Assembly (NCBI RefSeq): GCF_016903815.1
Contig: NZ_CP069973.1
Length of the DNA: 64,000 nt
Direction: 5' to 3' (one strand)
Source: Escherichia coli
GTDB taxonomy: Bacteria > Pseudomonadota > Gammaproteobacteria > Enterobacterales > Enterobacteriaceae
Shown: positions 2,025 through 32,819 of the stretch, piece after piece
Position numbering within the stretch: position 1 is the stretch's first letter
Layout of the letters: every line of letters begins with the position of its first letter
Translations under genes and position numbers: made by a program
Notes under the pieces: model-generated
Database searches by the model: none
Told to the model about the DNA's origin: nothing
Seen by the model: the letters and a program-made list of their open reading frames with translations, nothing else

Positions 2025-2049
2025 GCCCGCACATTGCTGCGGGCTTTTT
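2025..2049 (+). terminator. Rho-independent terminator after uspF
   Basis: gcccgcacattgctgcgggc stem-loop followed by ttttt. Confidence 0.6.
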
Positions 2050-2506
2050 GATTCATTTCGCAAATGTGCTGACATTTTCCCCTCTAATCCGTACCATACA
2101 CGCCACAGTTTTTATATCAGATTTCTTATGCTGGGCGTTCCGGCATGACGCATACTCTTCTGATGCCATATAACGAATTGAGTCGCTTTTAAATGTCGCA
2201 AAATCAAGAAATTAGTAAGAAAGAACAATACAACCTGAACAAGTAAGGGCAAAAATCACAACTCTCTGACTCATAAGTATTTTACTTATTTTTCAATGTG
2301 TTAAATATCATCAGCGACAACAATAAGCTACGATAACCCACTCTTTTTTTGCCCCTTTTTTGCCCCTTTTGCAGCGCTTTGCCCCATTTTTGCCATCAAC
2401 AATTTTCCTCATCAAGTCATTTCAAAGCCTAATAGGTGCCCTACTTTTTTCCTCAGTACCACGTCGCCAGCAGGAAACAACCTAATCCCGGTTCGGATCT
2501 AAAATT

Positions 2507-8199: not shown

Positions 8200-9240
8200 T
8201 TATTTAGACGCAAGCGTCGCCTCAATTGCAGATAATCTTTGTTTTAATTCTGCATTTTCTTCTTCCAGTGCTGTTATTCTGTCGTCTGACTCTCTGGCTA
8301 CCTGAACAAGCAAGCCAGTAACACCAGAATAATCTACTGTGTAATAACGTTCACCTTCTTCACCTTCCGATCCGCTTGCACCGTCCTGATATTTCATTGC
8401 GGAACCTACAACTTCTGGGATTGCTTCCAGAGCTTCCTGTGCAATGACACCAGCATAGGGCATACCGTTTTCTTTAAGCGTGTATGTATAGCCGTTCATT
8501 TTACGGATGCGGTCGGTTGCATTATCGATCACCTGAATGTTGTCTTTCAGATCCCGGTCGGAATGCTGGTTAAATGCGGTGGCATGACATGCACCATTAA
8601 CGCTTAACATATAGGTGTTATCGGTATTTTTCTGCGCATAGAACATATAAGCGCCACCATCAACACCGACTTCATAAACAACAGGACGGCTGGAGTTGCC
8701 CCACAATTGAGCAGTAACACCAGCATAAGCGGTTCCCTGTGTGTTTAATGTCATGGTTGACCCATGATTGGCATATTTGATCTGTAATGTGTCGGTGTAA
8801 TCAAATTTAATAAGCGCGTTACTTCCACGCTTGCTGTATGACATAAGGCAGTTACCCATTTTGAGGTATCCGCTGTCACCGGGAAAAATCATCGTACCGC
8901 CATAAAGGTTGGTAAAGTCCCAGCAAATGTTTGTCCCGTTATCGTTCAGGTTAAGGCGCGCCATTGCGTTACCTGGACTGTCTATCCATTTTTTGAGGTA
9001 TAGTTCGCAATACGCATCCTCAACACCTGCCGTCCTGTGAGTTGAGCGGAGTTTTCTCCCAAATATAGCTCCGCTAGTTGGCAATACCTGCTGATACCAT
9101 GAAGCAGACCAGTCACCAACGATTTCATCTTTGCTGTCTACATATAATTTTGTTGCGTAGCTTCCTTGATCGTTTTTTAATTTGCTAACGTCGGATTTTA
9201 GCGTTTTGATGTCATCAGGAATTACTGTCGATGTAGCCAT
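8200..9240 (-). CDS. Tail fiber / receptor-binding protein with C-terminal intramolecular chaperone-like domain
   Basis: 346-aa ORF; C-terminus (NGYTYTLKENGMPYAGVIAQE...YYTVDYSGVTGLLVQ...ITALEEENAELKQRL) resembles the autoproteolytic chaperone domain of tail fibers and tailspikes. Confidence 0.55.
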   Translation of the reverse strand: MATSTVIPDDIKTLKSDVSKLKNDQGSYATKLYVDSKDEIVGDWSASWYQQVLPTSGAIFGRKLRSTHRTAGVEDAYCELYLKKWIDSPGNAMARLNLNDNGTNICWDFTNLYGGTMIFPGDSGYLKMGNCLMSYSKRGSNALIKFDYTDTLQIKYANHGSTMTLNTQGTAYAGVTAQLWGNSSRPVVYEVGVDGGAYMFYAQKNTDNTYMLSVNGACHATAFNQHSDRDLKDNIQVIDNATDRIRKMNGYTYTLKENGMPYAGVIAQEALEAIPEVVGSAMKYQDGASGSEGEEGERYYTVDYSGVTGLLVQVARESDDRITALEEENAELKQRLSAIEATLASK

Positions 9241-9249
9241 TTTTCTTCC

Positions 9250-9531
9250 TCACATCCAGCCACGAAGTTGATGCTCAACAGCAACCACGTATTCATCGAA
9301 TAATGACGATATTTGCGAATCATTAATGATGCGCACGTTTACAAAATATCCGTCTTCCTTAACACATACCGGTTCGCCATCTTCAGTCAGTTCTCCGGTT
9401 TCTTTGTACACGTTACCTATCACGTCAATAAGAATATCATCCTGCATCGACTCGTCATCATAATAGCCAATACTCTCCATAAAGGCCGAAAAGTCGGCCC
9501 TGTCGGCAAATTTGAGTGTTAAATCTTTCAT
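9250..9531 (-). CDS. Hypothetical acidic phage protein (possible tail fiber accessory)
   Basis: 93-aa acidic ORF between the two fiber genes; start overlaps the stop of the upstream stf-like gene. Confidence 0.4.
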   Translation of the reverse strand: MKDLTLKFADRADFSAFMESIGYYDDESMQDDILIDVIGNVYKETGELTEDGEPVCVKEDGYFVNVRIINDSQISSLFDEYVVAVEHQLRGWM

Positions 9532-12637: not shown

Positions 12638-15600
12638 TCAGCTAATCGTGATGCCTGCAGTGGCTTTCTTCATCACAACAACCAGCAAATCGCTGATACT
12701 TGCTGTGGGATACCAGCCATTTACCCACCATGCTGATACAGAAAACTCCAGTGTCATTACGCCACTGCCTGCAGGCATATCAATAACACCCGTGTAAATC
12801 AGAGTATTATCCAGAGCCGTTCGGTTATAAATTTCAGCCCCGTTTTTCTTCACTATCAGGCGGCATGACGAATAAGTATCGCTATTCTCCCGTTCATGTC
12901 TGGCACCGCTGAAAGCCACCGCTGGAATAACAATTTGCCGGTCAAACGGCTGATCGTCATAAACCCTGACGGTAATGGTCCCTGATGGCCACCGCTCCGG
13001 TGCACGGGAGTCCCGGGGGAAAGCTTTGCCCACTGTTTTAACGAGATCGCCTTCAATCTGGTTCGCGGACAGTTTTCCCAGAACCCGACAGTTCTCGTTA
13101 ATCGTGACGTTGTTGAGCGTCCCGGAGTTCGCATTCACGCTACCGCTGATATCGGCATTTTTCGCCGTCAGTCGCCCGTCCGGTGTCAGGGAAAATGCCG
13201 GAGGATTACCGCCGCTGGTAATGGTGGGAGCCGTCAGATATTTCAGGAACACTTCATTCATGAATATCTGATCGCCCTGACCAACAAACATCGGCTTTGT
13301 GTTGCCATTCGCAGGATTAATCATCGCAATCCTGTCCGCCGCCAGCAGCACCTGACTCTGCATGCCGTCGGGGGTGTTCTCAATACCGGCACCGATACCC
13401 GCAATATAAAGGCGTCCGTCCTGCATCTGCTGCAGCTTCACTGCCCACATGCTGTTCAGGTTATTATTTGTATCAACCTGAACCTTCTGTATCTGCTGGA
13501 TCGCTGCACTCTGGTCTTCCAGTTTCTTATTGACGGTCTGCGTGATTTCATTGCTGACATCCGTAATGGACGTCCTGATTTCAGCCAGGTCAGGCGCAAG
13601 CTGACCGTTATCAATCTGCGTCCACAGCTCCTGAGCCAGATGGGTTTTCCCTATCTCGCCTTTGAAAAAATCCAGATAGCCGGATGCATCATCACTCGGC
13701 TGACCAACAGCCTCCACGAATGCCGATTTGCCAACGGTGTTCACACTGCGAACGTAAAAATAATAATCATGGCCCGGTTTGATATTGATACTGGCGGCTA
13801 TCCAGTACAGCCCCGTGCCAAGATAGCTGGCTGTGGTTTCAACCTGCCTGATATCGGTAATCCGCTTTTCCGAGAACCAGAACTCAAACTGTACCGTCGG
13901 GTCATAAACGGCAAGATGCGGCGTGGCGGTTATCTGAAAATACCCCGGCGTCAGCTCAATCCGCGACGGTGCTACCGGTGCGGCAATCCGGAACGATACC
14001 GACGCCGGATCGCCCTGCTGTCCCCACGCATTTACCGCCCGGACTGTCAGCGTGTACCGCCCCAGCGCCAGTTGCGTGAAGCGGTATGTGGTTTCCGTCG
14101 TCCGGGCCGTGCTGACCAGCCGCTCACTGCCGTCATCCGCTGCCACGGTCAGGCGAAGCAGGAAGCTCACGCCCTTCACCACCTTCGGCGTGTCCCAGCG
14201 CGCCAGCACCTGATATTCCCCGCTGTCTGCGGTGACTTCGGCGGTCAGGTGCTGCACCGCTGGCGGCGTGACACCATTCACCGTGCCGCTCTGGTCGCCG
14301 TCAAAGTGCGCCCCGTTATCCACGATGGCTTCTTTTTCCGGTACATGCTGCACGGCAGTGATGGCATACGTGCCGTCATCGTTCTCACGGATACTCACAC
14401 AGCGGAACAGGCGCTGGCGCAGCGTCGGCAGCTTCAGCCCCCACACACTGTATTCTGCAACGCCGTCAGGAACCCGGTTCACTTTCACCTTAAGTCCGTC
14501 GGTGACGGACTGAACCTCCACGCTGACCGGATTACCACTTCCGTCAACCAGGCTTATCAGCGTGGTACCGGAGGATGGCAGCGTGATTTCACGGTCGAGC
14601 GTCAGCGTCCGGGTCTGGCTGTTCACCGCCAGCACGCGACCACCGGTGCTGATACCGGCATAGTCATCATCACAGATTTCAATGACATCGCCCGGTACAT
14701 GGCGAAGCCCTTCGGCACCCACGCTGAAGTCCACGGTCTGCGTTTCCAGCAGTTCCGTTTTAATCAGCCACAGCCCGGCGCGGTGCGCCTGCCCCCGGCT
14801 GGTACAGCCAAAGGCATCCATCTTCGTGACGTTACGACCGTAACGGAGAATGGCCTGCGTATCTTCAACAAGCTCTGTCGCCGTCTCCCAGCCGTTATCC
14901 GGGTCAATCCAGTTCACCTCAACGGCATTATGGCGGTCCTTCAGGGCGCTGAAGCTGTAGCGGAACGGCGCGCCATCATCCGGCATCACCACATTACTGT
15001 GGTTATAGGTCCACACCTTATCCGACGGTCGGTCCTGCACGAACGTCAGCGTCTGCCCGTTCCATACCAGCATACAGCGCATCGCCGAACAGAAATCACT
15101 GAGCACATCCCACGCCTTGCGCTGTGTGGTCAGGTACGCATTACAGGTGATGCGCGGCTCCGTGCCGCCAAAGCCGTCCGGCACTGACTGGTCGCAGTAC
15201 TGGCCGATGACATACAGCGCCCATTTGTCCACATCCGCCGCACCAAGACGTTTCCCCATGCCGTAGCGTGGATGGGTCAGCATATCCCACAGACACCAGG
15301 CCATGTTATTGCTGTATGCTGGCTTAAACGTTCCGTCCCAGATACCGCTGTATTGCCGAGTCTGCGGGTTATAGTTCGATGGCACCTGCAGAATGCGCCC
15401 GCGAAGATGATAATTACGGCTCACCTGCTGGCTGCCGAACTGTTCCGAGTCCACCTGCACGCCGACCAGTGCCGTGTTCGGGTAGCACTGTTTCACATCG
15501 ATGATTTCAGTGTATGACGACCAGAGCGTTTTGTTCTGCAGCTGGTCTGTGGTGCTGTCCGGCGTCATCCTGCGCATCCGGATATTAAACGGGCGCGGCG

Positions 15601-16117
15601 GCAGGTTATCCACCACAACCGAGGCCAGATACTGTGAAGTGGTTTTACCCTTAATGGTGATGTCTTTTTCCGTCACCCAGCCACCGTTACGTTGTATCTG
15701 AACCAGCAGGCGGACTTCCGATGGATTCCTGTCCCCCTTTGAGGTGGTTTCCACCAGTGCCTGCACGCCGAAAGTAAAACGCAGACGGTCAATGTTTGCC
15801 GACGTGATGGTCCGGGTTATCGGCGTGTCATATTTCACTTCTGTACCGAGCACCGTCTCGGAGCCGGAGGATTCAAATCCCTCCGGCGGTGTCTGCTCCT
15901 GCTCACCGGCCCGGAACACCACCGTGACGCCGGATATATTGGTATTCCCCTCACTGTCCAGCACCGGCGTACTGTTCAGCAGCACGCTTTTTAATCCATC
16001 CACCGGACCTTCAACCGGCCCTTCGCTGATGGCATCGATCACACTCAGCAGCTGCGTGGACTTCAGGTTGTCCTTCGCTTCGCGCGGGGTATGCCCCTTA
16101 CTGCTGCCTTTACCCAT
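12638..16117 (-). CDS. J: Tail tip host specificity protein J
   Basis: 1159-aa ORF collinear with lambda gpJ, following I. Confidence 0.9.
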
Positions 16118-16177
16118 TCGTCATGCTCCATAAACGATAAAACCGCCCGGAGGCGGTTTCACATAAAACATTTTGCA

Positions 16178-16819
16178 TCAGCGACCAATCACCACAACCT
16201 GACCACCATCCCCTTCGTCTGCCGTGCTGATCTCCTGAGAAACCACGCGTGACCCCACGCGCATTTCACCGTACAGAACCGGCAGAACATTGCCCTGGGC
16301 AACCATGTTATCCAGTGAAGAAAAATAGGTGTTCTGTTTGCCGTTATCCGTTGTCTGTGTGCGGGGAGTTCTGGGTTTAGGGGCCAGCATCTGTGCAACA
16401 CCGCCAAGCGTCATACTGGCACCGAGAGAAAACAGCAGATTACTCGCCATAATTCCTACCCCCGGCATCCATATAGCAACCGCCATAACAGCCGCCCCCA
16501 GCACAGCCTGAAACACACCGCCACTTTTGGCTCCTGCCAGACGCGGCACGATATGGATCACGGCACCATTTTCCAGCGGCTCATTAAGACGGGCAGACAA
16601 TTCGGTTTCACCTGCATCACGCCCGGCAATGCGTACCTGGTACCAGCCGTCGCTCAGTTTCTGACGAAATGCCGGGATCTGCATGGCCAGCGCCCGGATG
16701 GCTTCGGCCCCCGTTTTCACTCGAAGGTCGATGCGGCGGCCAAATCGTTGTAAATCCCCGTAAAGGCAGATGCGTGCCATGCCCGGTGACGCCAGAGGGA
16801 GTGTGTGCGTCGCTGCCAT
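16178..16819 (-). CDS. I: Tail assembly protein I
   Basis: 213-aa ORF, lambda gpI-like, overlapping K as in lambda. Confidence 0.85.
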   Translation of the reverse strand: MAATHTLPLASPGMARICLYGDLQRFGRRIDLRVKTGAEAIRALAMQIPAFRQKLSDGWYQVRIAGRDAGETELSARLNEPLENGAVIHIVPRLAGAKSGGVFQAVLGAAVMAVAIWMPGVGIMASNLLFSLGASMTLGGVAQMLAPKPRTPRTQTTDNGKQNTYFSSLDNMVAQGNVLPVLYGEMRVGSRVVSQEISTADEGDGGQVVVIGR

Positions 16820-17460
16820 TTGTCGGTGTACCTCTCTCGTTTGCTCAGTTGTTCAGGAATATGGTGCAGCAGCTCGCTGTCACCACAGTAAATGGCGGCA
16901 TGATTCGGCACCGATGAACCAAAACAGCACAGCAGCACATCGCCCGGCTGCGCCGCTGACAGCGGCACCTGATACAGCCCTGCGGCCTCCAGATTATCCA
17001 GATAGAGATTCTGACCGTTACGCCACCAGTCATCCTCACGATGAAAATCCGGCATCTCAATCCCCGCCAGATGGTAAGCATCCCGGAACAGCGTGTAACA
17101 GTCCGTCACCCCGTGCTCAAAGAGCCGCCCGGTGAGATGCGGCACACAGCGGAATTTATGAATCGCCCCCCGGCAGACCAGCCACCACGGCAAATCACTC
17201 TGCACCTGCAACCGCCGGTCGGCCTCACTCAGCCAGGGCAGACCACCGGGATGGCTGTGCACCAGCGCCACAATCTCACCCTGCATTTCTGCCCGCAGCC
17301 AGTCCTCCGGCGACATCCGGAAATACGCCTCCGGCTCACCGGAGATATTTACGCAGGGAAGATATCTGTCTCCCTCCGGCGTTCTCACCACAAAGCCGCA
17401 CGACTCCGCTGGCGCACATCGCCGGGCGTGCGCCAGAATCGCTGATTCTGTCTCTGTCAT
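16717..17460 (-). CDS. K: Tail assembly protein K (NlpC/P60 and JAB-like)
   Basis: MTETESAILAHARRCAPAESCGFV... with HSHP motif; lambda gpK-like. Confidence 0.85.
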   Translation of the reverse strand: MTETESAILAHARRCAPAESCGFVVRTPEGDRYLPCVNISGEPEAYFRMSPEDWLRAEMQGEIVALVHSHPGGLPWLSEADRRLQVQSDLPWWLVCRGAIHKFRCVPHLTGRLFEHGVTDCYTLFRDAYHLAGIEMPDFHREDDWWRNGQNLYLDNLEAAGLYQVPLSAAQPGDVLLCCFGSSVPNHAAIYCGDSELLHHIPEQLSKRERYTDKWQRRTHSLWRHRAWHASAFTGIYNDLAAASTFE

Positions 17461-17465
17461 GGGAT

Positions 17466-18164
17466 TTACTGCGAAAGTTTGTTAATGGAAAGGAAGCCGC
17501 CAAAGTTGCCGACGTTATTGCGAAACTTACAGCCACTCAGGCATTTGCTGCATTTATCCTTCGTGATATCGGTTGTCGGCTGGTCATATTCATCCGCGAC
17601 AGCCGGACCGTGATAACCGCACTCATCACCGCGATAGGTCCAGGTGCAGGTGTTGGCCAGCATGATACGTCCCGGAAAAACAGCGCCATCCGTTTCCGTC
17701 GGCGTGGACAGTACAAAGGAGGCACTGACCGCGCTCAGTTCGCTGCACTGCTCGATGCGCCAGCGGCTGATCACCTCCTGCTCCGGATCGGCGTCGCTGT
17801 TTCCGTTGACGAAGTTCACCGCATCCAGAAAACGGGCATAAACCTTACGCCTGACCACCGTTCCGCCGACCAGACTCTGCAGGTCTTCCGCCATCCCGGT
17901 GACCATACCGTACAGGTTAGAAACCGTCAGCGTGGGGCGCGTACTGGTACCTTTGCCATTCAGTTCGAAACCACTCCCCTGAATGGGATACGCCTGATAC
18001 TGTCGCCCCTGCCAGGTGACCGGCTCACCTTTTTCGTTCTGCTCATTACAGAAAAAATAACGTTCTCCACCAACCTCTGTCAGATCGATTTCCCAGAGCA
18101 CCACGCAGGCAGACTGCTCCGCACGGGTGCATTCATTCAGTGTTTCCTGTCGGATATCCTGCAT
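17466..18164 (-). CDS. L: Minor tail protein L
   Basis: 232-aa ORF, lambda gpL-like, with Cys cluster near the C-terminus. Confidence 0.9.
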   Translation of the reverse strand: MQDIRQETLNECTRAEQSACVVLWEIDLTEVGGERYFFCNEQNEKGEPVTWQGRQYQAYPIQGSGFELNGKGTSTRPTLTVSNLYGMVTGMAEDLQSLVGGTVVRRKVYARFLDAVNFVNGNSDADPEQEVISRWRIEQCSELSAVSASFVLSTPTETDGAVFPGRIMLANTCTWTYRGDECGYHGPAVADEYDQPTTDITKDKCSKCLSGCKFRNNVGNFGGFLSINKLSQ

Positions 18165-18493
18165 CAGTTCACCACCTGTTCAAACTCTGCGCTGAACTCA
18201 ACACGCAGCATACTGACCCGCGACGACCATTTTGCGCAGGTCACCTTTATCTGCCGCCACTCATAAGGCGGCGTCCACAGAAAGGCTTTCCAGCCCCCGT
18301 GCTCTTCCAGAAACGACTCCAGTACCGTGGCCTCCTCACGGGGGACAGAAAGCGTCACGCTGTACGTTTTCAGGTTGGCATTCAGCCCGGCAGGCGCTCG
18401 CTGGGAATAGCCATCACCAAAGCGCACCTTTCTTACAGAAGGGGCCGAAGCCACATCCATACCGGGTTTCACTTTCCAGCGGAAGGTTTTCAT
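18164..18493 (-). CDS. M: Minor tail protein M
   Basis: 109-aa ORF, lambda gpM-like, between H and L. Confidence 0.9.
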   Translation of the reverse strand: MKTFRWKVKPGMDVASAPSVRKVRFGDGYSQRAPAGLNANLKTYSVTLSVPREEATVLESFLEEHGGWKAFLWTPPYEWRQIKVTCAKWSSRVSMLRVEFSAEFEQVVN

Positions 18494-21051
18494 CGTCCAC
18501 CTCCGGAGAACAGGCCACCATCACGCATCTGTGTCTGAATTTCATCACGGGCACCCTTGCGGGCCATGTCATACACTGCCTTCATCATCTGTGGACCTGG
18601 CAGACCATTCGTACCGTCGTTCTGAATCACCACGTGATTGTTCTGATTAAAATTAATGCCTTCAGCCCGCCGCATCTGCGCCGGACTTCCGGCACCGCCC
18701 ACATAACCACCTTCCGCATAGCCCCGCATCAGGCGGTACAGGTTGCCGACACCAATCCGGCTGGTTGCCTCCTTCGTGAAGACAAATTCACCACGGTGAA
18801 CAATCCCCGCTGGCTCATATTTGCCGCCGGTTCCCGTAAATCCCCCGGTCGCAAAATGGAATTTCGCCGCAGCGGCCTGAATGGCTGTACCGCCTGACGC
18901 GGATGCTCCACCACTGGCAGCACCGCCAATGGCGCTGCCGATACTCCCGACAATCCCCACCATTGCCTGCTTAAGCAGAATTTCTGTCATCATGGACAGC
19001 ACGGAACGGGTGAAGCTGCGCCAGTTCTGCTCACTGCCGGTCAGCATCGCCGCCATATTCTGTGCAATACCATCAAAGGTCTGCGTGGCTGCACTTTTAA
19101 CCTGCGACATACTGTCCGTGGCGCTCTCTTCCCACTCACTCCAGCCGGACTTCAGGCCTGCCATCCAGTTCCCGCGAAGCTGGTCTTCAGCCGCCCAGGT
19201 CTTTTTCTGCTCTGACATGACGTTATTCAGCGCCAGCGGATTATCGCCATACTGTTCCTTCAGGCGCTGTTCCGTGGCTTCCCGTTCTGCCTGCCGGTCA
19301 GTCAGCCCCCGGCTTTTCGCATCAATGGCGGCCCGTTTTGCCCGTTGCTGCTGTGCGAATTTATCCGCCTGCTGCGCCAGCGCGTTCAGGCGCTCCTGAT
19401 ACGTAACCTTGTCGCCAAGTGCAGCCAGCTGGCGTTTGTACTCCAGCGTCTCATCTTTATGCGCCAGCAGGGATTTCTCCTGTGCAGACAGCTGGCGACG
19501 TTGCGCCGCCTCCTCCAGTACCGCGAACTGACTCTCCGCCTTCCACAAATCCCGGCGCTGCTGGCTGATTTTCTCATTTGCTCCGGCATGCTTCTCCAGC
19601 GTCCGGAGTTCAGCCTGAAGCGTCAGCAGGGCAGCATGAGCATTGTCTTCCTGACGATCGCCCGCAGACACCTTCACGCCGGACTGTTTCGGCTTTTTCA
19701 GCGTCGCTTCATAATCCTTTTTCGCCGCCGCCATCAGCGTGTTGTAATCTGCCTGCAGAATTTTCCCGTCCTTCAGTGCCTTATTCAGTTCTTCCTGACG
19801 GGCGGTATATTTCTCCAGCGGCGTCTGCAGCCGTTCGTAAGCCTTCTGCGCCTCTTCGGTATATTTCAGCCGTGACGCTTCGGTATCGCTCTGCTGCTGC
19901 GCATTTTTGTCCTGTTGAGTCTGCTGCTCAGCCTTCTTTCGGGCGGCTTCAAGCGCAAGACGGGCCTTTTCACGATCATCCCAGTAACGCGCCCGCGCTT
20001 CATCGTTAACAAAATAATCATCCTTGCGCAGATTCCAGATGTCGTCTGCTTTCTTAAACGCAGCCTCTGCCTTAATCAGCATCTCCTGCGCGGTATCAGG
20101 ACGACCAATATCCAGCACCGCATCCCACATGGATTTGAATGCCCGTGCAGTCCTGTCTGCCCAGGTCTCCAGCGTGCCCATGTTCTCTTTCAGGCGGCGG
20201 GTCTGGTCATCAAACCCTTTCGTTGCGGCCTCGTTCGCTGCCTGCAATGCCCCGGCCTCATCGCCGGAACGCTGCAACTGAGCAACATACGCAATCTGCT
20301 CCGCCGTCACGTTATGGAACTGGCGCGCCATCGCCGTCAGCCCCGACGTCGGGTCTGTGGTCAGCTTCCCGAAGGCTTCAGCGACCTTGTCCACCTCCAC
20401 GCCGGATGCAGAGGAGAAACGCGCCACACTCTGGCTGATGGACGCAATCTGAGCCTCACCGCTTACTCCCGCCTTAACCAGTGCGCTGAGTGACTCGCTG
20501 GTCTGGTTAAACGTCAGCCCTGCCGCCTGCCCGGCTCTGGACAGGACCAGCATACGATCTGCCGTCAGACCCGACTGATTGCCGGAAAGGACCAGCGTTT
20601 TGTTGAAATCGGACAGGGTTGAGTTGCCCTGATACCAGGCATACGCCAGCGCACCGGTCGCCACCGCCAGCGAGGTGGCCCCGACCATCGGCAGGGTGAT
20701 CGCACCGGCAAGCCCCCGGAACATGGGGATCATCCCGCCGAAGGAGTCCTTCACCTGCCCCCCCTGTTGCAGCAGGATCAGCCACGGACTTTGCCCGCCT
20801 GCAAGCTGCGTGGCCACGTCGGTGAACTGTGCAGGCAGCATACGCATGGCGGCTTTATACTGCCCGACGGAAATCCCCGCTTTCTGTGCAGCCAGCGCCT
20901 GTCGGCTCAGCGACTGTTCAACGACTGCCGCTGTTTTTTTCGCATCACTTTCCGTACCGGAAAAATGACGCCTGACTCTGGCCATCTGCTCGTCAAATCT
21001 GGCCGCATCCAGACTTAAATCAACGACCAGATCGCCTACCGGTTCAGCCAT
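18490..21051 (-). CDS. H: Tail tape measure protein H
   Basis: 853-aa ORF, same length as lambda gpH; coiled-coil rich with a Gly-rich segment. Confidence 0.9.
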   Translation of the reverse strand: MAEPVGDLVVDLSLDAARFDEQMARVRRHFSGTESDAKKTAAVVEQSLSRQALAAQKAGISVGQYKAAMRMLPAQFTDVATQLAGGQSPWLILLQQGGQVKDSFGGMIPMFRGLAGAITLPMVGATSLAVATGALAYAWYQGNSTLSDFNKTLVLSGNQSGLTADRMLVLSRAGQAAGLTFNQTSESLSALVKAGVSGEAQIASISQSVARFSSASGVEVDKVAEAFGKLTTDPTSGLTAMARQFHNVTAEQIAYVAQLQRSGDEAGALQAANEAATKGFDDQTRRLKENMGTLETWADRTARAFKSMWDAVLDIGRPDTAQEMLIKAEAAFKKADDIWNLRKDDYFVNDEARARYWDDREKARLALEAARKKAEQQTQQDKNAQQQSDTEASRLKYTEEAQKAYERLQTPLEKYTARQEELNKALKDGKILQADYNTLMAAAKKDYEATLKKPKQSGVKVSAGDRQEDNAHAALLTLQAELRTLEKHAGANEKISQQRRDLWKAESQFAVLEEAAQRRQLSAQEKSLLAHKDETLEYKRQLAALGDKVTYQERLNALAQQADKFAQQQRAKRAAIDAKSRGLTDRQAEREATEQRLKEQYGDNPLALNNVMSEQKKTWAAEDQLRGNWMAGLKSGWSEWEESATDSMSQVKSAATQTFDGIAQNMAAMLTGSEQNWRSFTRSVLSMMTEILLKQAMVGIVGSIGSAIGGAASGGASASGGTAIQAAAAKFHFATGGFTGTGGKYEPAGIVHRGEFVFTKEATSRIGVGNLYRLMRGYAEGGYVGGAGSPAQMRRAEGINFNQNNHVVIQNDGTNGLPGPQMMKAVYDMARKGARDEIQTQMRDGGLFSGGGR

Positions 21052-21478
21052 ACCGGACTCCTCCTGCGATCCCTTCTGATACTGTCATCAGCATTACGTC
21101 ATCCTCCGTCATGTCCGCCACATCCGGGGAAGCGGGGATAACTTCATTCCCGTCCGGGCCAAAGCGGACACCTCCGGCAAGCCCTGCCGCTTTCTGCATC
21201 AGCACATCATCTTCAGGCTCTTCGTCAGCCTCACGCCGGTTCAGCAGACTGAAATCCAGCGGATGCATATCCGGATCGCTGAAAAACAGGCTGAGCACGG
21301 TGTACGTCAGCCCGGAAAAGTGCATATCCAGCAGAACATCATGAAAATAATGGGTACTGTAAAAGCGGTGCCAGTCGGCATACTCCGTGGATGACATCCC
21401 GGCAAGCATGGCACGCCAGTCGGGTCGCCCCATCTCACGCGCCAGTTTCAGGGCAAAACTCAGCTCACCGTCGAACAC
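21044..21478 (-). CDS. T: Tail assembly chaperone T-frame (expressed as G-T fusion by -1 frameshift)
   Basis: ORF in the -1 frame relative to G, overlapping the G 3' end where the GGGAAAG slippery heptamer lies. Confidence 0.75.
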   Translation of the reverse strand: MFDGELSFALKLAREMGRPDWRAMLAGMSSTEYADWHRFYSTHYFHDVLLDMHFSGLTYTVLSLFFSDPDMHPLDFSLLNRREADEEPEDDVLMQKAAGLAGGVRFGPDGNEVIPASPDVADMTEDDVMLMTVSEGIAGGVRYG

Positions 21479-21882
21479 TTTCCCGCAGAAACAGGCTCTG
21501 CGGGCCCGGCGTCCTCTGTCTGTTCAGGGGCATTATTCACCACAAACTCATACATACCAGACAGCCGGTACACCACGTTTTCAGCATGAGAAATTGCCTC
21601 CGTGGGCCAGGTGGTAAGCACTTCCTGCTCAATCTGTTTAACGGCTTCATTCATGGACGGCATCTGCGTCTTCTGCGGATGGTTATGCCACAGGGACATC
21701 GCCACCAGAAACGCGCCGGTTCTGATGGCGTCTTCCACAGTAAACTTCCGGTTGCTGTCTGACTCCGCCTGTTCTGCCTGCCGTTTCATCAGGGCGAGAT
21801 GCTCAATGCGCTGCAGGGCTGACAGTTCAGAAAGCGTGACGGTCACACCGTTATGTTCAAATGATTCGGTTTTCAGGAACAT
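21460..21882 (-). CDS. G: Tail assembly chaperone G
   Basis: 140-aa ORF MFLKTESFEHNGVTVTLSELSALQRIEHLAL..., lambda gpG-like. Confidence 0.9.
   Translation of the reverse strand: MFLKTESFEHNGVTVTLSELSALQRIEHLALMKRQAEQAESDSNRKFTVEDAIRTGAFLVAMSLWHNHPQKTQMPSMNEAVKQIEQEVLTTWPTEAISHAENVVYRLSGMYEFVVNNAPEQTEDAGPAEPVSAGKCSTVS
21476..21482 (-). other. Programmed -1 ribosomal frameshift slippery site GGGAAAG (G to G-T)
   Basis: Minus-strand GGGAAAG a few codons before the G stop, exactly as in lambda G/GT. Confidence 0.75.
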
Positions 21883-21897
21883 CGCTGACTCTCCGGA

Positions 21898-22638
21898 TTA
21901 ACTGGCGGTGACGGTAATTTCTGCAACCGCAGCAAACTCACCATTACCGGATACAACCGGAATGTTGACCTTGCCTGCAGCAACGCCGTTCACGGTGATG
22001 GTCATACCACTGACCGACACGGTGGCTTTTGTTTTATCCGCAGACACCGCACGAAAGCTCTTGTCGGTTACGCCCTCCGGCTGGAAGGCCACGGTCAGCG
22101 TGGTGCTCTGCCCTTTCACCACCGAGGTGCTGGCAGGCGTCACGGTCATGCCGGTTGCCGCTGTTACCGTGCTGCGATCTTCTGCCATCGACGGACGTCC
22201 CACATTGGTGACTTTCACCGTGCGGGTGATCACTTCCTTCGCCGTCACCGCCTTACCGATACTGCTGACCCAGCCACGGAACACATCGACCGTGCCGTTC
22301 GGGAAGCGGATTTTATAGGCACGGGTATCGCCTTCATTAAACCACGCCAGCAGCGCCTGCTGCCCCTGCTCTCCGGGCATCCACGCCAGCGTGAAGCTGG
22401 TATCTCCGGCAGATTTCTGCCCCTGCCCGGTCGCAGTCCAGTCTGCATCTTCATCATCGAGATAGCTGTCGTCATAGGACTCAGCGGTCAGTTCGCCGGG
22501 CGTCAGGTCTTTAACTTTTGCCAGACGCGACCAGTCAACGTCTGAAAGCGGATTCGCATAAGGGTCACCGCTCCCCTTATAAACCCACAGTGTGGTCCCG
22601 GCACCTTTCACCGGCATTGTTGGATTTGGTACAGGCAT
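21898..22638 (-). CDS. V: Major tail protein V
   Basis: [22 protein letters not shown]... with C-terminal Ig-like domain; start taken at the internal Met matching lambda gpV. Confidence 0.9.
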
Positions 22639-22645
22639 AGCGTCC

Positions 22646-23041
22646 TCACATTTCATAGGTAATGACATAAGTCAGATCGGCTGAACTCCACAGGCCCGCA
22701 TCATCGTCGCGCCGGTAGTCATAGCCACTGGCCACCATACTGGTGATCAAATCTGACAGTGCCGGGATATCGCTCATCACCGGATAAATCCGGGACTCCA
22801 TCCACGAATCCAGCTCTGAATCCGGCACCTGAGCAGGCAGGAAAACTTCAATATGCAGCTCCGCCTGCCAGGTATCGCTGTCCAGCTCTTCGCCCGTGTA
22901 TTCAGCGCCGGTGAGATAAACGGCAATTGCCGGAAAATCCGCCTCATCAAAAACAGCGGGGCGACCATCAAAAAGCGTCGCCCCGGTGTCATGCTTCTCC
23001 AGTGCATCCAGTACGGCTGCACGGAGTTCAGTATGTTTCAT
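22646..23041 (-). CDS. U: Tail terminator protein U
   Basis: 131-aa ORF, lambda gpU-like. Confidence 0.9.
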
Positions 23042-23616
23042 CGCTTTATTACCATTCTCAGTTGATGCTGCAGCGCATAGCCCAGCTCTTTCGGAAGACG
23101 TTCACGCCGTATCCGTTCAATATTCTGTTTAAACGCCGTGGTAAGCGGCACCGCCATCGGGATTTTCACCACATCAATGGGGTAACGGTTTTTCCCGGCC
23201 ACACGCTGCATGACATGCCACCGCCCATTTTTCAGTTGCTGAATAAACGCGCCGGGAATACGACGGTTACCCACCACAAGCACGCTGCCGCCACCTTTCA
23301 GGGATGAACGCTGCCCCTTTTTACGACGCCTGCGGCGGGACAGGACAACCCGCGCATTACCCAGCTTGATTACGGGCAAATCCCCCCGGTTAACTTTGAT
23401 TCTGGCCTGCGGGTTTTTGACCGTGGCCCTTTTCAGCCTGGCCCTTTCCTTTACCAGTTTCCGGCGTACCTTTGTCTCACGGGCAACCTGTGACGCCGAC
23501 TGCGATATCGCGGATGAAGCAACGCGGTTAATGGCCATTGCGGCGGCACCGGGCACCGCCGTTTTGCTGATACGGCTGAGGTTTTCAACGGCCTGCTCAA
23601 GACCTTTTATGGCCAT
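23038..23616 (-). CDS. Z: Tail completion protein Z
   Basis: 192-aa ORF, lambda gpZ-like. Confidence 0.9.
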   Translation of the reverse strand: MAIKGLEQAVENLSRISKTAVPGAAAMAINRVASSAISQSASQVARETKVRRKLVKERARLKRATVKNPQARIKVNRGDLPVIKLGNARVVLSRRRRRKKGQRSSLKGGGSVLVVGNRRIPGAFIQQLKNGRWHVMQRVAGKNRYPIDVVKIPMAVPLTTAFKQNIERIRRERLPKELGYALQHQLRMVIKR

Positions 23617-23627
23617 ACATCCCCCTT

Positions 23628-23981
23628 TCAGCGGCGACGGTTAACGGCAGGCGGCACGCCCCGTCCAAGCCAGAGATGACAGCTTCCGCCATCATCCGGC
23701 GAAACCCGATCTACCCAGAAATTTTCCTCACCGATGGTCAGCGTGTCTCCACGCCGCAGCTGCCGCACCTCATCAGTCCGGACAAACAGGGACGGGCTGG
23801 AGCCTTCAACGCGCACGCCCTGTCCGGCATAGCTGATATTTTCAGGGTCATCAAAAACACCACGTATCACCGCACCGGACTGCTCACCGGATGTAATGGT
23901 GGCTGACGTTCCCATGTACCCGCGTATCGTTTCATCGGCGCGGGCAATGGCAGCATCGAACAGGTTATCGAAATCAGCCAC
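23628..23981 (-). CDS. FII: Head-tail joining protein FII
   Basis: 117-aa ORF, lambda gpFII-like. Confidence 0.9.
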   Translation of the reverse strand: MADFDNLFDAAIARADETIRGYMGTSATITSGEQSGAVIRGVFDDPENISYAGQGVRVEGSSPSLFVRTDEVRQLRRGDTLTIGEENFWVDRVSPDDGGSCHLWLGRGVPPAVNRRR

Positions 23982-23992
23982 AGCGCCTCCCG

Positions 23993-24391
23993 TTATTGCA
24001 TTCTGGCCAGGCCGCGCTCTGTCATTTCGGCTGCCACACCGGCAGAGACACGAAACGCCGTTCCCGGCAGCACAAATGCCACAGCCTCATCCCGCGTGGC
24101 GTGAAGTGCATCAGTATGCAGCTTCACCAGTGCCACGACCGTGACCAGTTCAGACGTATCCAGAATCACGGTATCCGGCTGCGCTGATCCCACCTCATTT
24201 TCATGTCCGGTCAGCACATTTTCCCGGCTGAGAGGGGTGTCCTGACCGGCAGTTTCATCCGTGTCATCAAGCTCCTCTTCCAGCTCTGCCACACGGAGCG
24301 CCAGTTCTTCTTTCGTCCCCGTCAGGCTGACATCACGGTTCAGTTGTTCACCCAGCGAGCGGAGACGGGCAATCAGTTCATCTTTCGTCAT
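23993..24391 (-). CDS. FI: DNA packaging protein FI
   Basis: MTKDELIARLRSLGEQLNRDVSLTG..., lambda gpFI-like; start taken at the internal Met. Confidence 0.85.
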   Translation of the reverse strand: MTKDELIARLRSLGEQLNRDVSLTGTKEELALRVAELEEELDDTDETAGQDTPLSRENVLTGHENEVGSAQPDTVILDTSELVTVVALVKLHTDALHATRDEAVAFVLPGTAFRVSAGVAAEMTERGLARMQ

Positions 24392-24432
24392 GGACTCCTC
24401 CACAGAGAAACAATGGCCCCGAAGGGCCATGA

Positions 24433-25458
24433 TTACGCCAGTTGTACGGACACGAACTCATCAGGGTCAGCCAGCAGCATCAGCGGTGCTGACTGAATCA
24501 TGGTGAACTCACGCGCCGGATCGCCGGTGGTCACCCAGTTTTTCGGGTAACGGGCAGAGGCGTTAATGCCTTCGCGCTGTGCGTCCGCATCCTGAATGCA
24601 GCCATAGGTGCGCAGACCGCGTGCCTGAGTGTTCCCCAGCACCATCGTGTTGTCCGGCAGGAAGTTCTTTTTGACGCCGTTTTCCACGTACTGTCCGGAA
24701 TACACGACGATGGCCACATCGCCATACATCCCCTTATAGGACACCGCTTTACCTAGGTCTTTCACCGCTGTCTCCAGCTCGGAATGAGAGCCGCGACGAG
24801 TATCCAGCTTCTCCTTGACGGCTTTGAAGGAACGGAACAGCGCCCAGCCTTTCGGATCGAACACGATGATATTCACCACACCGCTGGCGTTCAGCGCGTA
24901 GGCTTCGATATCGTCGGTCGGGTCATACGTGGACTTGTCACGCTTGCTCCACTCCGTGCCGCCGGACTGCGTGATGTTATTCTCCTCACTGCGGCCCATA
25001 TCCACCTCAACCGGATCGAAGGCTTCACCGGTCATGGTGTATTTGCCCTTAAGCACGGCAGAAACTGCCTGCATCTCTTCGACCTGAGCAATGGCCAGCT
25101 CTTCGTCACGCATGTTCTGCATGATGATGCGACGGCGGCGGTAAGCCGGGTCCGCCAGATTCTGCGGATCTTCATCCGGCAGGCGACGCAGGGTCATCTG
25201 CGGATTCACTTCATGCTTCGGCTTGACATATCCCGGCGTAAATTCAGAGGTGGAGCCGCCACGGGAACGGATAACCTCACCGGAAACAATCGGCGAAACG
25301 TACAGCGCCATGTTTACCAGTCCCGGAATTTGTGAGAGATAGACTTTCTCCGTAGTGAAGGGATAGCTCTCACGGAAAAAGAGACGCAGAAACAGCGGAT
25401 CAAACTTAAATTTCTGCTCATTTGCCGCCAGCAGCTGGGCGGTTGTGTACATCGACAT
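24433..25458 (-). CDS. E: Major capsid protein E
   Basis: 341-aa ORF, same length as lambda gpE. Confidence 0.9.
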   Translation of the reverse strand: MSMYTTAQLLAANEQKFKFDPLFLRLFFRESYPFTTEKVYLSQIPGLVNMALYVSPIVSGEVIRSRGGSTSEFTPGYVKPKHEVNPQMTLRRLPDEDPQNLADPAYRRRRIIMQNMRDEELAIAQVEEMQAVSAVLKGKYTMTGEAFDPVEVDMGRSEENNITQSGGTEWSKRDKSTYDPTDDIEAYALNASGVVNIIVFDPKGWALFRSFKAVKEKLDTRRGSHSELETAVKDLGKAVSYKGMYGDVAIVVYSGQYVENGVKKNFLPDNTMVLGNTQARGLRTYGCIQDADAQREGINASARYPKNWVTTGDPAREFTMIQSAPLMLLADPDEFVSVQLA

Positions 25459-25512
25459 AAAAAAATCCCGTAAAAAAGCCGCACAGGCGGCCTTTAGTGA
25501 TGAAGGGTAAAG

Positions 25513-25845
25513 TTAAACGATGCTGATTGCCGTTCCGGCAAACGCGGTCCGTTTTTTCGTCTCGTCGCTGGCAGCCTCCGGCCAGAGCACATCCTCATAA
25601 CGGAACGAGCCGGACTTGTAGAACGTCAGTGTGGTGCTGGTCTGGTCAGCAGCAACTGCAAGAATGCCAACGGCAGCACCGTCGGTGGTGCCATCCCACG
25701 CAACCAGCTTACGGGTGGAGGTGTCCAGCATCAGCGGGGTCATTGCAGGCGCTTTCGCACTCAATCCGCCGGGCGCGGTTGCGGTATGAGCCGGGTCACT
25801 GTTGCCCAGCGGCTGGTAATGGGTAAAGGTTTCTTTGCTCGTCAT
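25513..25845 (-). CDS. D: Head decoration protein D
   Basis: [27 protein letters not shown]..., lambda gpD-like. Confidence 0.9.
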
Positions 25846-25854
25846 AAACATCCC

Positions 25855-27154
25855 TTACACTGGTGTGTTCAGCAAATCGTTAACGGCATCAGATGCCGGG
25901 TTACCTGCAGCCAGCGGTGCCGGTGCCCCCTGCATCAGACGATCCAGCGCAGTGTCACTGCGCGTCTGTGCACTCTGTGGTGCTGCGGCCAGAATACGGC
26001 GGGCCGTTTCCACGGTCATACCAGGGGTTTCGGCCAGCACGCATGCCTGTTCTTCGCGTCCGTGAGCCTCCTCACAGTTGAGGATCCCCATAATGCGACT
26101 GTTTTCTGCCGCAACCGCTGCGGTGATCTGCGCGTTCACGTCCGGCTGCGCAGCGCTGGCGTTCTCGCCCTCCGTCGCTTGCACCACGCCAGTAACGTCA
26201 GCCTGCGAAGCAGTGGCTGAAACAGTTGTTGATTGAGTCTCTTTGGTCATTCGCCCTCCTGAGAGACGGGATTTACGTGCATCCAGTGCATCACGCATGA
26301 CGGTGATCGCATCGGTACTGTTCACAAGTTCATCAGCCAGTCCGGCATCAATGGCCTCCTGACCGCTGTACACTGCAGCCTCGGTATCCAGCACAGCCTG
26401 CACGTACAGGCCGGTATATGCCGACACCTTCTGTGCAAACATCCGGCGGGTTGCATCCATCCGGGACTGCAGTGTTTCCCGGACATCATCCGGTAGATGG
26501 CTGTAGGGGTTGCCATCCACCTTATGGCTGCCGCTGTAAATCAGCGTGATTTCCACGCCCTGTTTCTCCAGCGCAGCACCGTAATTACTGTGAGCCATCA
26601 TGACGCCGATGGAGCCTGTCCGGGCGGTCTGCGTGACCAGACGCCGGGAGGCGGCGCTGGCAAGCAGCTGACCTGCACTGCAGTTCATGTCGTTGGCCAG
26701 CGCCCATACCGGTTTTATGTCTCGCACACGGGCGATGATGTCAGCACAGTCAAATGCTCCCGCCACCATCCCGCCCGGTGTGTCCATATCCAGCAGAATG
26801 CCGTCCACCATCGGATCGCTGGCAGCCTGTTGCAGACGGGCGATAATGCCGTTGTAACCGGTCATTCCCGAATACGGCTGCAGCGCCCGCGTCCGGCTGA
26901 CCAGCGTACCGGACACCGGCAGCACGGCGATGCCGTTCATGACCTGATAACTGCGGGCCTGTCGTGGTCCGTCATCATCACCGGATAACGCCAGCGCCGC
27001 GGGTGCCTCTCCGGCAATCAGGCTGTCGCCGGATACTGCATCCGTCAGGCGGCTGATCCCAAGCTGGCCTGCAAGCGCACAAAAGAAAACCCGCGCATAG
27101 GCGGGTTCAAGCATCAGCGGCTCATTAAAAGCCATGCTGGCAATATGCGGGAGA

Positions 27155-27174
<20 letters not shown>
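25855..27174 (-). CDS. C: Capsid assembly protease C (with nested scaffold Nu3 frame)
   Basis: ClpP/SppA-like serine protease; probable GTG start at 27174 giving lambda-like N-terminus TAELRNLPHIASMAF; overlaps the B 3' end by about 20 nt as in lambda. Confidence 0.8.
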
Positions 27175-30855
<3,681 letters not shown>

Positions 30856-30881
<26 letters not shown>

Positions 30882-31401
30882 TCAGCAACCCCGGTATCAG
30901 TTCATCCAGCGCGGCTGCTTTGTTCATGGCTTTGATGATATCCCGTTTCAGGAAATCAACATGTCGGTTTTCCAGTTCCGGAAAACGCCGCTGCACCGAC
31001 AGGGGGATCCCGTCGAGAATACTGGCAATTTCACCTGCGATCCGCGACAGCACGAAAGTACAGAATGCGGTTTCCACCACTTCAGCGGAGTCTCTGGCAT
31101 TTTTCAGCTCCTGTGCGTCGGCCTGTGCACGCGTAAGTCGGTGGCGTTCGTACTCAATAGTCCCTGGCTGGAGATCTGTCTCGCTGGCCTGCCGCAGTTC
31201 TTCAACTTCCCGGCGCAGCTTTTCGTTCTCAATTTCAGCATCCCTTTCGGCATACCATTTTATAACGGCGGCAGAGTCATAAAGCACCTCATTACCCTTG
31301 CCACCGCCTCGCAGAACGGGCATTCCCTGTTCCTGCCAGTTCTGAATGGTACGGATACTCGCACCGAAAATGTCAGCCAGCTGCTTTTTGTTGACTTCCA
31401 T
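30856..31401 (-). CDS. nu1: Terminase small subunit Nu1
   Basis: MEVNKKQLADIFGASIRTIQNWQEQGMPV..., 181 aa, winged-helix DNA-binding; adjacent to cos. Confidence 0.9.
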
Positions 31402-32642: not shown

Positions 32643-32819
32643 TCAGATTAAATTAATCTTGACATCATAGCTTTCAAGACCCGTCATTTTTTCCCGTGCG
32701 GTAAACTGAATACTGGTAACTTCTTTCCCGGTCTTTTTCTTAAGTTCAATAATTTTTTTTGTTATATATTCAGAAATATCTGCTTCTGCTTTTGTTTTTA
32801 AGTTTTCAATATTCATCAT
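32643..32819 (-). CDS. gnsB: GnsA/GnsB-family small protein
   Basis: 58-aa minus-strand ORF not in the track: MMNIENLKTKAEADISEYITKKIIELKKKTGKEVTSIQFTAREKMTGLESYDVKINLI, matching GnsB (...FTAREKMTGLESYDVKI...). Confidence 0.7.
   Translation of the reverse strand: MMNIENLKTKAEADISEYITKKIIELKKKTGKEVTSIQFTAREKMTGLESYDVKINLI

What the first reader, a model, noticed from the sequence alone, without database searches (positions are those of the whole stretch)
21460..21490. Conserved lambda-type G/GT programmed -1 frameshift signal
The slippery heptamer GGGAAAG lies on the minus strand at 21476..21482, a few codons before the G stop, with the T frame open in -1. It is the same sequence and position as in lambda, which argues the tail assembly chaperone system is functional.
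Basis: partly seen in the sequence, partly recalled or inferred. Interest (0 to 1): 0.35.

Follow-up and report, generated by a model that had tools for sequence, protein, structure and literature searches.

The report
Lambda G/GT tail-chaperone frameshift site
This is the well-known ribosome "slip site" that lets phage lambda make two tail-assembly helper proteins from one message, here carried intact and base-for-base identical to lambda in a lambda-like prophage of E. coli, so it is real but ordinary.

Summary
GGGAAAG lies on the minus strand at 21478..21484, not 21476..21482. It is phased G_GGA_AAG in a 140-codon ORF, five codons before the TGA stop. The -1 frame stays open for 144 codons and ends 8 nt inside the tape-measure gene.

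- **Identity to lambda:** the ORF is nucleotide-identical to lambda gene G. The -1 frame differs from lambda T by one synonymous base. The heptamer corresponds to lambda 10109..10115, the experimentally established G/GT programmed -1 frameshift site.
- **Family membership:** curated models agree (TIGR01674 plus TIGR01715, PF06894 plus PF06223).
- **Conservation:** in 221 related loci a shift-prone A-run lysine site sits at the homologous position, although its sequence varies.
- **Function:** all 20 morphogenesis genes nu1..J are intact and under purifying selection (pN/pS 0.13). The chaperone pair therefore looks functional.
- **Caveat:** the host element is a Qin-like mosaic prophage with three IS insertions and hybrid flanks, so whether it is ever expressed is untested.
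- **Downstream RNA helix:** one is predicted 8 nt after the heptamer, but the evidence for it is inconclusive.

Verdict: already known, low interest.

The parts
21478..21484 (-). Slippery heptamer G_GGA_AAG (equals lambda 10109..10115). Zero frame reads Gly-Lys (GGA AAG). The -1 frame also reads Gly-Lys (GGG AAA).
   Evidence: identity to lambda; named as lambda's slip site in PMC3296357 Table 1 and PMC7618472
21460..21882 (-). Gene G, tail assembly chaperone gpG: 140 aa, 15.6 kDa, stop TGA at 21460..21462. This is the zero-frame product.
   Evidence: 423/423 nt identical to lambda G; PF06894 at 9e-62 and TIGR01674 equivalog at 1.5e-65; mass
21044..21478 (-). T reading frame (-1 relative to G), 144 codons plus stop. 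It is translated as the C-terminal half of the gpGT fusion (279 aa, 31.2 kDa: 21882..21478 joined to 21478..21044, with base 21478 read twice).
   Evidence: 100% aa identity to lambda T, with one synonymous difference at 21233; TIGR01715 at 2e-55 and PF06223 at 6e-14 on the fusion; PHROG 32165 matches the fusion end to end
21898..22638 (-). Gene V, major tail tube protein (upstream neighbour), 246 aa, 100% identical to lambda V
18490..21051 (-). Gene H, tape measure protein (downstream neighbour), 853 aa. Its start overlaps the end of T by 8 nt.
   Evidence: 97.0% aa identity to lambda H, no gaps
12638..31401 (-). Complete lambda-type morphogenesis module nu1-A-W-B-C/nu3-D-E-FI-FII-Z-U-V-G-T-H-M-L-K-I-J. 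All genes are full length with no internal stops.
   Evidence: tblastn of every lambda protein; pN/pS = 0.13 over nu1..K
21401..21469 (-). Predicted downstream RNA helices. Helix 1 pairs 21469..21463 with 21407..21401 and starts 8 nt after the heptamer. Helix 2 pairs 21444..21434 with 21419..21409. Status: weak, not established.
   Evidence: signal in 12 sequences; not significant on phylogeny-robust measures in 72 unique sequences; RNAalifold does not recover it

Best explanation
The site is the programmed -1 ribosomal frameshift signal of the lambda G/GT tail assembly chaperone pair, carried by a lambda-like prophage. Ribosomes start at the G ATG (21882). Most of them read G_GGA_AAG in frame, add CSTVS and stop, which gives gpG (140 aa). 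A small fraction, about 4% in lambda, slip back one base on the heptamer. The tRNA-Gly re-pairs GGA to GGG and the tRNA-Lys (mnm5s2UUU) re-pairs AAG to AAA. These ribosomes then read the T frame to 21044, which gives gpGT (279 aa). From work on lambda: gpG and the G part of gpGT coat the tape measure protein gpH. The T part recruits the major tail protein gpV so that the tube polymerises around gpH. Neither protein ends up in the virion, and the roughly 30:1 ratio set by the slip frequency is needed for tail assembly. Shown here: the sequence, the phase, the open frames, identity to lambda, family membership, conservation in relatives, and intact neighbours. Inferred from lambda: the slip frequency, the tRNA mechanics and the chaperone function. 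Not shown: that this prophage expresses its late genes.
For: The open -1 frame of 144 codons comes. G is nucleotide-identical to lambda and T differs by one synonymous base. The gene order V-G-T-H is annotated as such in lambda and in 100%-identical E. coli genomes. TIGR01674 and TIGR01715 equivalogs and PF06894 and PF06223 hit the predicted fusion, and PHROG 32165 covers residues 1-278. In comparisons, 12 relatives down to about 35% protein identity keep a slip site at the same position, as GGGAAAG, AAAAAAG or GGAAAAG, some annotated as 'slippery sequence for -1 translational frameshift'. Across 221 loci the counts are GGAAAAG 128, GGGAAAG 84, AAAAAAG 4, and A_AAA beside a TAG stop 5. Literature: lambda's slip site is GGGAAAG, with about 96% of ribosomes staying in the zero frame (PMC3296357). 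The gpG:gpGT ratio of 30:1 and the chaperone model are in PMC5009743. G_GGA_AAG is among the most shift-prone heptamers in E. coli (PMC5009743; PMC6815119).
Against: Nothing in the sequence argues against it. Three limits apply. No expression or protein data exist for this element. The prophage has ISCro1 between int and xis, IS200C between the Q homologue and the lysis genes, an ISNCY remnant, and no flanking att repeats, so late-gene expression and virion production are uncertain. The zero divergence of G from lambda may reflect a recent recombination block (no differences across window 22557..21234) rather than extra constraint.
Confidence: 0.95

Rival explanations
1. Intact but silent relic. 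The signal and genes are lambda-type, but the prophage is cryptic like its K-12 counterpart Qin. G/GT would then never be translated in this host, and the sequence is preserved only by recent descent or recombination rather than by current function.
For: The early and late regulatory region is colinear with cryptic prophage Qin of K-12. ISCro1 separates int from xis, IS200C lies between the Q homologue ydfT and the lysis genes, and there is an ISNCY remnant. The flanks correspond to two different K-12 prophage sites and share no direct repeat of 12 nt or more, so clean excision is doubtful.
Against: All 20 morphogenesis genes nu1..J are full length with no stop or frameshift. pN/pS against lambda is 0.13 over 18 genes. 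The side tail fibre ORF is also uninterrupted. Closely related sit-carrying lambda-like phages and phages sharing the head and early region at 99% identity exist as deposited phage genomes. This rival concerns expression only. It does not change what the signal is.
Confidence: 0.3
2. T is made on its own by initiation at the GTG (21478..21476) that databases list as the T start, not by frameshifting.
For: Lambda and RefSeq records annotate T as a separate CDS starting at this GTG. The ORF list also shows a GTG-initiated 144-aa ORF.
Against: The GTG lies inside the heptamer. The only purine-rich stretch upstream (GCGGGAAA) abuts it with no usable Shine-Dalgarno spacing. Relatives with AAAAAAG-C or GGAAAAG-C have no start codon at that position yet keep the open T frame. 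N15, phi80 and Gifsy-1 records annotate it as the downstream half of a frameshift product. The literature describes gpGT as the product (PMC3296357, PMC5009743).
Confidence: 0.02
3. The -1 product arises from RNA polymerase slippage on the A-run, not from ribosomal slippage.
For: Relatives with AAAAAAG have six consecutive A residues. Transcriptional slippage occurs in other bacterial genes (PMC5009743, PMC4256274).
Against: The window's run is only AAA, which from general knowledge is far shorter than the runs that support polymerase slippage. The frameshift level in lambda responds to tRNA-Lys U34 thiolation, a translational effect (PMC3296357).
Confidence: 0.01
4. The heptamer is a chance occurrence with no recoding role.
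For: The heptamer's count in the window is what chance predicts: 10 against 8.3 expected.
Against: Its context is unique among the 10 copies. It is identical to the experimentally characterised lambda site. A shift-prone site is retained at the homologous position in 221 of 221 related loci while the flanking sequence diverges.
Confidence: 0.005

Closest known systems
Bacteriophage lambda genes G and T (gpG / gpGT), programmed -1 frameshift at G_GGA_AAG (Levin, Hendrix & Casjens 1993; Xu, Hendrix & Duda 2004, 2013, 2014, as cited in PMC5009743)
   Same: Everything testable matches. G is 423/423 nt identical and T is 434/435 nt identical with 100% aa identity. The heptamer, phase and distance to the stop (5 codons) are the same. 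The V and H neighbours and the 8-nt T/H overlap are the same.
   Different: It sits in a mosaic Qin-like prophage of a clinical-type E. coli rather than in lambda itself. The flanking genes H, L, K, I and J are 81-97% identical to lambda's, and the early region is unrelated to lambda's.
G/T-type frameshifts of other lambdoid phages (N15 genes 14/15, phi80 G-T, Gifsy-1 STM2596/2595, Stx phages)
   Same: Same gene position, homologous proteins, and a -1 slip site at the homologous codon.
   Different: These use G_GAA_AAG or A_AAA_AAG, and some stop one codon after the site. The window has the canonical two-tRNA heptamer G_GGA_AAG.
E. coli dnaX -1 frameshift (A_AAA_AAG with an upstream Shine-Dalgarno-like element and a downstream stem-loop)
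   Same: Bacterial -1 slip on a lysine A_AAG codon read by tRNA-Lys(mnm5s2UUU). It yields two products with a fixed ratio from one gene (PMC5009743).
   Different: There is no SD-like element 10-14 nt upstream. A downstream helix is only weakly suggested. Efficiency in lambda is about 4%. My recollection, not checked here, is that dnaX runs at roughly 50%.
Cryptic prophage Qin of E. coli K-12
   Same: The regulatory, lysis and cargo genes are colinear from intQ/rspB through nohA: dicB, dicC, relBE, hokD, ydfU, ydfT, cspB, cspF, essQ, rrrQ, cspI, gnsB, ydfO.
   Different: K-12 Qin has lost everything between nohA and stfQ, including G/T. The window keeps the complete nu1..J module and ends at the Rac-side flank uspF/ompN instead of ydfJ.

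Membership tests
Lambda-type G/GT tail assembly chaperone with programmed -1 frameshift | Two overlapping ORFs located between the major tail protein gene and the tape measure gene | tested here: met
   Order V (21898..22638), G (21460..21882), T (21044..21478), H (18490..21051), all on the minus strand
Lambda-type G/GT tail assembly chaperone with programmed -1 frameshift | [quoted passage not shown] | tested here: met
   G_GGA_AAG at 21484..21478, 5 codons before TGA
Lambda-type G/GT tail assembly chaperone with programmed -1 frameshift | Downstream ORF is in the -1 frame and open from the slip site | tested here: met
   144 codons open after the slip. The -1 frame opens 39 nt upstream of the heptamer
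Lambda-type G/GT tail assembly chaperone with programmed -1 frameshift | Downstream ORF has no translation start of its own | tested here: inconclusive
   The only start-like codon is the GTG inside the heptamer, which has no spaced Shine-Dalgarno. Relatives lack a start codon there. Independent initiation cannot be excluded from sequence alone.
Lambda-type G/GT tail assembly chaperone with programmed -1 frameshift | Upstream product belongs to the gpG family | tested here: met
   TIGR01674 equivalog 219 bits (cut-off 74); PF06894 207 bits (cut-off 27)
Lambda-type G/GT tail assembly chaperone with programmed -1 frameshift | Frameshift extension belongs to the gpT family | tested here: met
   TIGR01715 equivalog 186 bits (cut-off 77); PF06223 52.6 bits (cut-off 25.9) on fusion residues 140-245
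Lambda-type G/GT tail assembly chaperone with programmed -1 frameshift | Slip site conserved at the homologous position in diverged relatives | tested here: met
   12 of 12 annotated relatives and 221 of 221 loci keep an A-run lysine slip site
Lambda-type G/GT tail assembly chaperone with programmed -1 frameshift | A fusion protein is actually produced at a low fixed frequency (about 4%) | not testable with these tools
   Known for the identical lambda sequence (PMC3296357; PMC5009743). No expression data for this element.
Lambda-type G/GT tail assembly chaperone with programmed -1 frameshift | Products bind the tape measure and major tail proteins, are required for tail assembly and are absent from virions | not testable with these tools
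   Literature on lambda only (PMC5009743). The partner proteins V (100% aa identity) and H (97%) are present and intact here.
dnaX-type stimulated -1 frameshift | Shine-Dalgarno-like stimulator about 10-14 nt upstream of the heptamer | tested here: not met
   The upstream sequence GCAGAGCCTGTTTCTGC has no GGAG/AGGA/GAGG element
dnaX-type stimulated -1 frameshift | Conserved stem-loop 5-9 nt downstream of the heptamer | tested here: inconclusive
   A predicted helix starts 8 nt downstream. Single-sequence fold z = -2.4. Covariation exceeds controls in 12 sequences but not on the robust measures in 72 unique sequences (189/500 and 23/500 shuffles), and RNAalifold does not recover it. No Rfam family matches.

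The most novel reading that the evidence does not exclude
The lambda, N15 and phi80 branches of G/T genes may share a functional 3' RNA stimulator. It would be a bipartite helix beginning 8 nt after the heptamer (window 21469..21463 paired with 21407..21401, enclosing 21444..21434 paired with 21419..21409). It would help set the roughly 4% slip frequency and would be lost in the Gifsy-like branch. Two of its outer pairs change on both sides between clades (AU/GC/CG and CG/UG/GU/UA). I could not find in the accessible literature whether such an element has been described or excluded for lambda.
Probability: 0.12. Interest if true: 0.35.

Novelty: already known. Interest (0 to 1): 0.07.

Why it matters
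It matters little beyond annotation. The site confirms that this prophage has a complete, lambda-identical tail assembly chaperone pair. The T CDS in RefSeq records of this sequence should therefore be read as the frameshift extension of G, not as an independent gene. In practice, the intact G/GT signal together with an intact nu1..J module marks this element as a candidate for producing tailed particles. That bears on whether its sitABCD cargo can be mobilised by this prophage or by recombination with infecting lambdoid phages. The survey of 221 loci also gives a compact picture of how the slip site varies while its position and its slipperiness are retained.

Tried and rejected
1. Heptamer frequency as evidence: rejected. 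There are 10 copies against 8.3 expected. Only the context is informative.

2. Downstream stimulatory RNA structure. It looked promising in 12 sequences. It did not hold on phylogeny-robust measures in 72 unique sequences from 221 loci, and RNAalifold did not recover it. It is kept only as a weak lead.

3. Upstream 9-bp hairpin overlapping the first three G of the heptamer (21504..21482). It is not conserved outside lambda's closest relatives, so no role is assigned.

4. Upstream SD-like stimulator: absent.

5. Rfam: no family matches. The only hit is a chance snoRNA match at E = 0.49.

6. PDB: no solved relative of gpG or gpGT by sequence.

7. Literature on a 3' element at the lambda site. 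The primary papers (Levin 1993; Xu 2004, 2013) are not held, and the reviews that are held do not address it. My recollection that Levin et al. found no required downstream structure is unverified.

8. att repeats flanking the prophage: none of 12 nt or more. This led to the hybrid-flank observation.

9. Origin of the PhiR-series phage records that share 99% identity with the head and early region: no paper found.

10. The first related-loci scan returned only close relatives. It was repeated with distant members placed first in the alignment.

Full report
**Observation.**
The minus strand between 21520 and 21440 reads ...CCT GTT TCT GCG GGA AAG TGT TCG ACG GTG AGC TGA.... A pattern search puts GGGAAAG at 21478..21484 on the minus strand.

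The ORF that contains it runs from ATG at 21882 to TGA at 21462..21460 and encodes 140 aa. In that ORF the heptamer is phased G_GGA_AAG. Five sense codons (CSTVS) follow it before the stop. After a one-base backward slip the frame stays open for 144 codons, down to 21044.

**Chance.**
The heptamer by itself carries no information. It occurs 10 times in the window against 8.3 +/- 2.6 expected. I examined all ten copies in all three phases. Only the copy at 21478..21484 combines all four of these features:
- the X_XXY_YYZ phase;
- a long zero-frame ORF upstream (138 codons);
- a zero-frame stop close by;
- a -1 frame open for more than 100 codons.

**What it is.**
The 1.2 kb around the site is 99.8% identical to phage lambda and to many lambda derivatives. 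It is 100% identical to many complete E. coli chromosomes.

A base-by-base comparison with NC_001416 shows no difference anywhere in gene G (lambda 9711..10133). There is a single difference in T, at lambda 10360 (window 21233), and it is synonymous. The heptamer corresponds to lambda 10109..10115. The conventional 'T start' GTG at lambda 10115 is the last base of the heptamer plus the next two bases.

The neighbours are V upstream (100% aa identity) and the tape measure gene H downstream (97% identity). H starts 8 nt before the end of T.

Family models agree:
- gpG hits TIGR01674 (equivalog, 219 bits) and PF06894.
- The predicted 279-aa fusion also hits TIGR01715 (equivalog, 186 bits) and PF06223.
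- PHROG 32165, a family of full-length fusions, aligns to residues 1-278.

**Mechanism.**
The experimental basis is in lambda, and it applies to an identical sequence.
- The slip site is GGGAAAG. About 96% of ribosomes stay in frame and the rest make gpGT.
- gpG and the G part of gpGT bind the tape measure protein. The T part binds the major tail protein.
- A ratio of about 30:1 is needed for tail assembly, and neither protein is in the virion (PMC5009743, citing Levin 1993 and Xu 2004, 2013, 2014).
- G_GGA_AAG is among the most shift-prone heptamers in E. coli even without stimulators (PMC5009743; PMC6815119).

For the window, the sequence features are shown directly. The frequency, the tRNA mechanics and the chaperone role are inferred from lambda.

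**Comparative test.**
I fetched 12 annotated relatives spanning 92% to about 35% protein identity: PhiR42_1, PhiR12_2, Stx2a and Stx1a phages, CP-1639, 1720a-02, N15, phi80, mEp213, a Klebsiella phage, 606R10 and Gifsy-1.

All of them have a G-like ORF whose end overlaps an open -1 frame of 119-159 codons. All carry a shift-prone site at the same codon, as GGGAAAG, AAAAAAG or GGAAAAG. Several records annotate it explicitly as a -1 slippery sequence.

Three scans of viral contigs added 240 loci. In 221 loci I could anchor on the conserved T-frame ARE motif, which has no indels between it and the slip site. The heptamer at the homologous position was:

| Heptamer | Loci |
|---|---|
| GGAAAAG | 128 |
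| GGGAAAG | 84 |
| AAAAAAG | 4 |
| A_AAA directly before a TAG stop | 5 |

The sequence of the site drifts while its slipperiness and position are kept. That is the signature of selection on the recoding event itself.

**Stimulatory elements.**
No Shine-Dalgarno-like element lies upstream. A 9-bp hairpin at 21504..21482 overlaps the first three G of the heptamer, but it is not conserved.

Downstream, the 141-nt region folds better than shuffles (z = -2.4). A consensus fold of 12 sequences gave a helix starting 8 nt after the heptamer that encloses a second helix. In that set, covariation exceeded both controls.

With 72 unique sequences the result changed:
- The measures that are robust to relatedness were not significant. 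Pairs changed on both sides were 5 against 4.2 (189/500 shuffles reach that), and pair types were 15 against 13 (23/500).
- The inner helix is broken in the Gifsy-like clade.
- RNAalifold no longer predicts the structure.

The region also encodes the most conserved part of T (LAREMGRPDWRAML), which confounds the analysis. I treat the helix as an unproven lead. Rfam has no matching family.

I could not read the primary lambda papers, so I cannot say whether a 3' element has been tested. My memory that none was required is unverified.

**Is the system functional?**
Arguments that it is:
- Every lambda morphogenesis protein from Nu1 to J has a full-length counterpart with no internal stops in the window.
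- Over nu1..K there are 219 synonymous and 92 non-synonymous differences from lambda, giving pN/pS = 0.13.
- The side tail fibre ORF is uninterrupted (793 aa).

The chaperone pair and its partners V and H are therefore intact and have evolved under constraint.

Arguments for caution:
- The element is not lambda. It is a mosaic whose regulatory, lysis and cargo genes are colinear with the cryptic K-12 prophage Qin.
- It carries ISCro1 between int and xis, IS200C between the Q homologue and the lysis genes, and an ISNCY remnant.
- Its flanks share no direct repeat.

Whether it is induced, transcribes its late operon or excises cannot be decided from sequence.

**Comparison and novelty.**
This is the lambda G/GT frameshift itself, in a lambda-type module found in 3706 of 5426 complete E. 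coli genomes at 60-100% identity. Nothing about it departs from the known system. Interest is low.

Noticed in passing
window 1-2100 (ompN, uspF) and 58900-64000 (rspB, rspA, ynfA...): The prophage's two flanks belong to different prophage sites in K-12. uspF/ompN adjoin the tail-fibre end of Rac, and rspB adjoins the int end of Qin. Their relative orientation here is opposite to K-12, and no direct repeat of 12 nt or more links the flanks. This fits a terminus-spanning inversion between two lambdoid prophages relative to K-12, which leaves a hybrid element.
   Followed up: partly
window 2602-6051 (minus strand): The sitABCD iron/manganese ABC transporter operon lies between the tail-fibre genes and uspF as prophage cargo. 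Deposited lambda-like phage genomes (Perceval, 1H12, the Lambda_ev series) carry the same cargo next to a similar tail module.
   Followed up: partly
window 54763-57378; 36177-36635; 43191-44213; ~32644-32653: Three IS-related insertions lie in the prophage: ISCro1 (IS66 family) between int and xis, IS200C between the Q homologue ydfT and the lysis genes, and a truncated ISNCY transposase. The otherwise identical strain 7/2 has an extra IS1 at about 32644-32653 that the window lacks.
   Followed up: partly
window 21234-22557 (minus strand; lambda 9036-10359): A 1.3-kb stretch covering the 3' part of V, all of G and half of T has zero differences from lambda, while the module as a whole has pS = 0.064. 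This is probably a recent recombination block shared with lambda.
   Followed up: partly
window 9531-11912 (minus strand): The side tail fibre ORF is continuous (793 aa). RefSeq annotation of the identical DNA in strain 7/2 splits it into an N-terminal pseudogene and a separate CDS. Lambda PaPa's stf is frameshifted, so this prophage may encode a complete side fibre.
   Followed up: no
window 44718-47231: The prophage early region carries a KwaB-like (Kiwa anti-phage) domain protein with an adjacent hypothetical gene and a QueH epoxyqueuosine reductase homologue. relBE and hokD lie further on. All are possible defence or moron cargo.
   Followed up: no
window 21482-21504 (minus strand): A 9-bp hairpin (CCCGCAGAG / TTCTGCGGG) has a 3' arm that includes the first three G of the slippery heptamer. 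It is present in lambda-identical sequences and is not conserved in relatives at 75% identity or less.
   Followed up: partly
loci L145, L146, L151, L163, L164 (IMG/VR contigs): Five distant G/T homologues replace the A_AAG heptamer with CCCCTGGCAAAATAG or GGAAAAATAG. Here the lysine AAA codon is immediately followed by the G-frame TAG stop, so this would be a 'shifty stop' version of the same -1 slip.
   Followed up: no
window 43145-43151 (minus strand): A second GGGAAAG lies in X_XXY_YYZ phase within a 118+93-codon open frame, with a 74-codon open -1 frame. It sits just past the annotated ISNCY transposase remnant and is probably chance.
   Followed up: no
locus L010 268-285 (phage N15): N15 is annotated with a putative rho-independent terminator between the major tail gene and its G homologue. 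The window has only a 15-nt V-G spacer and no room for such an element.
   Followed up: no
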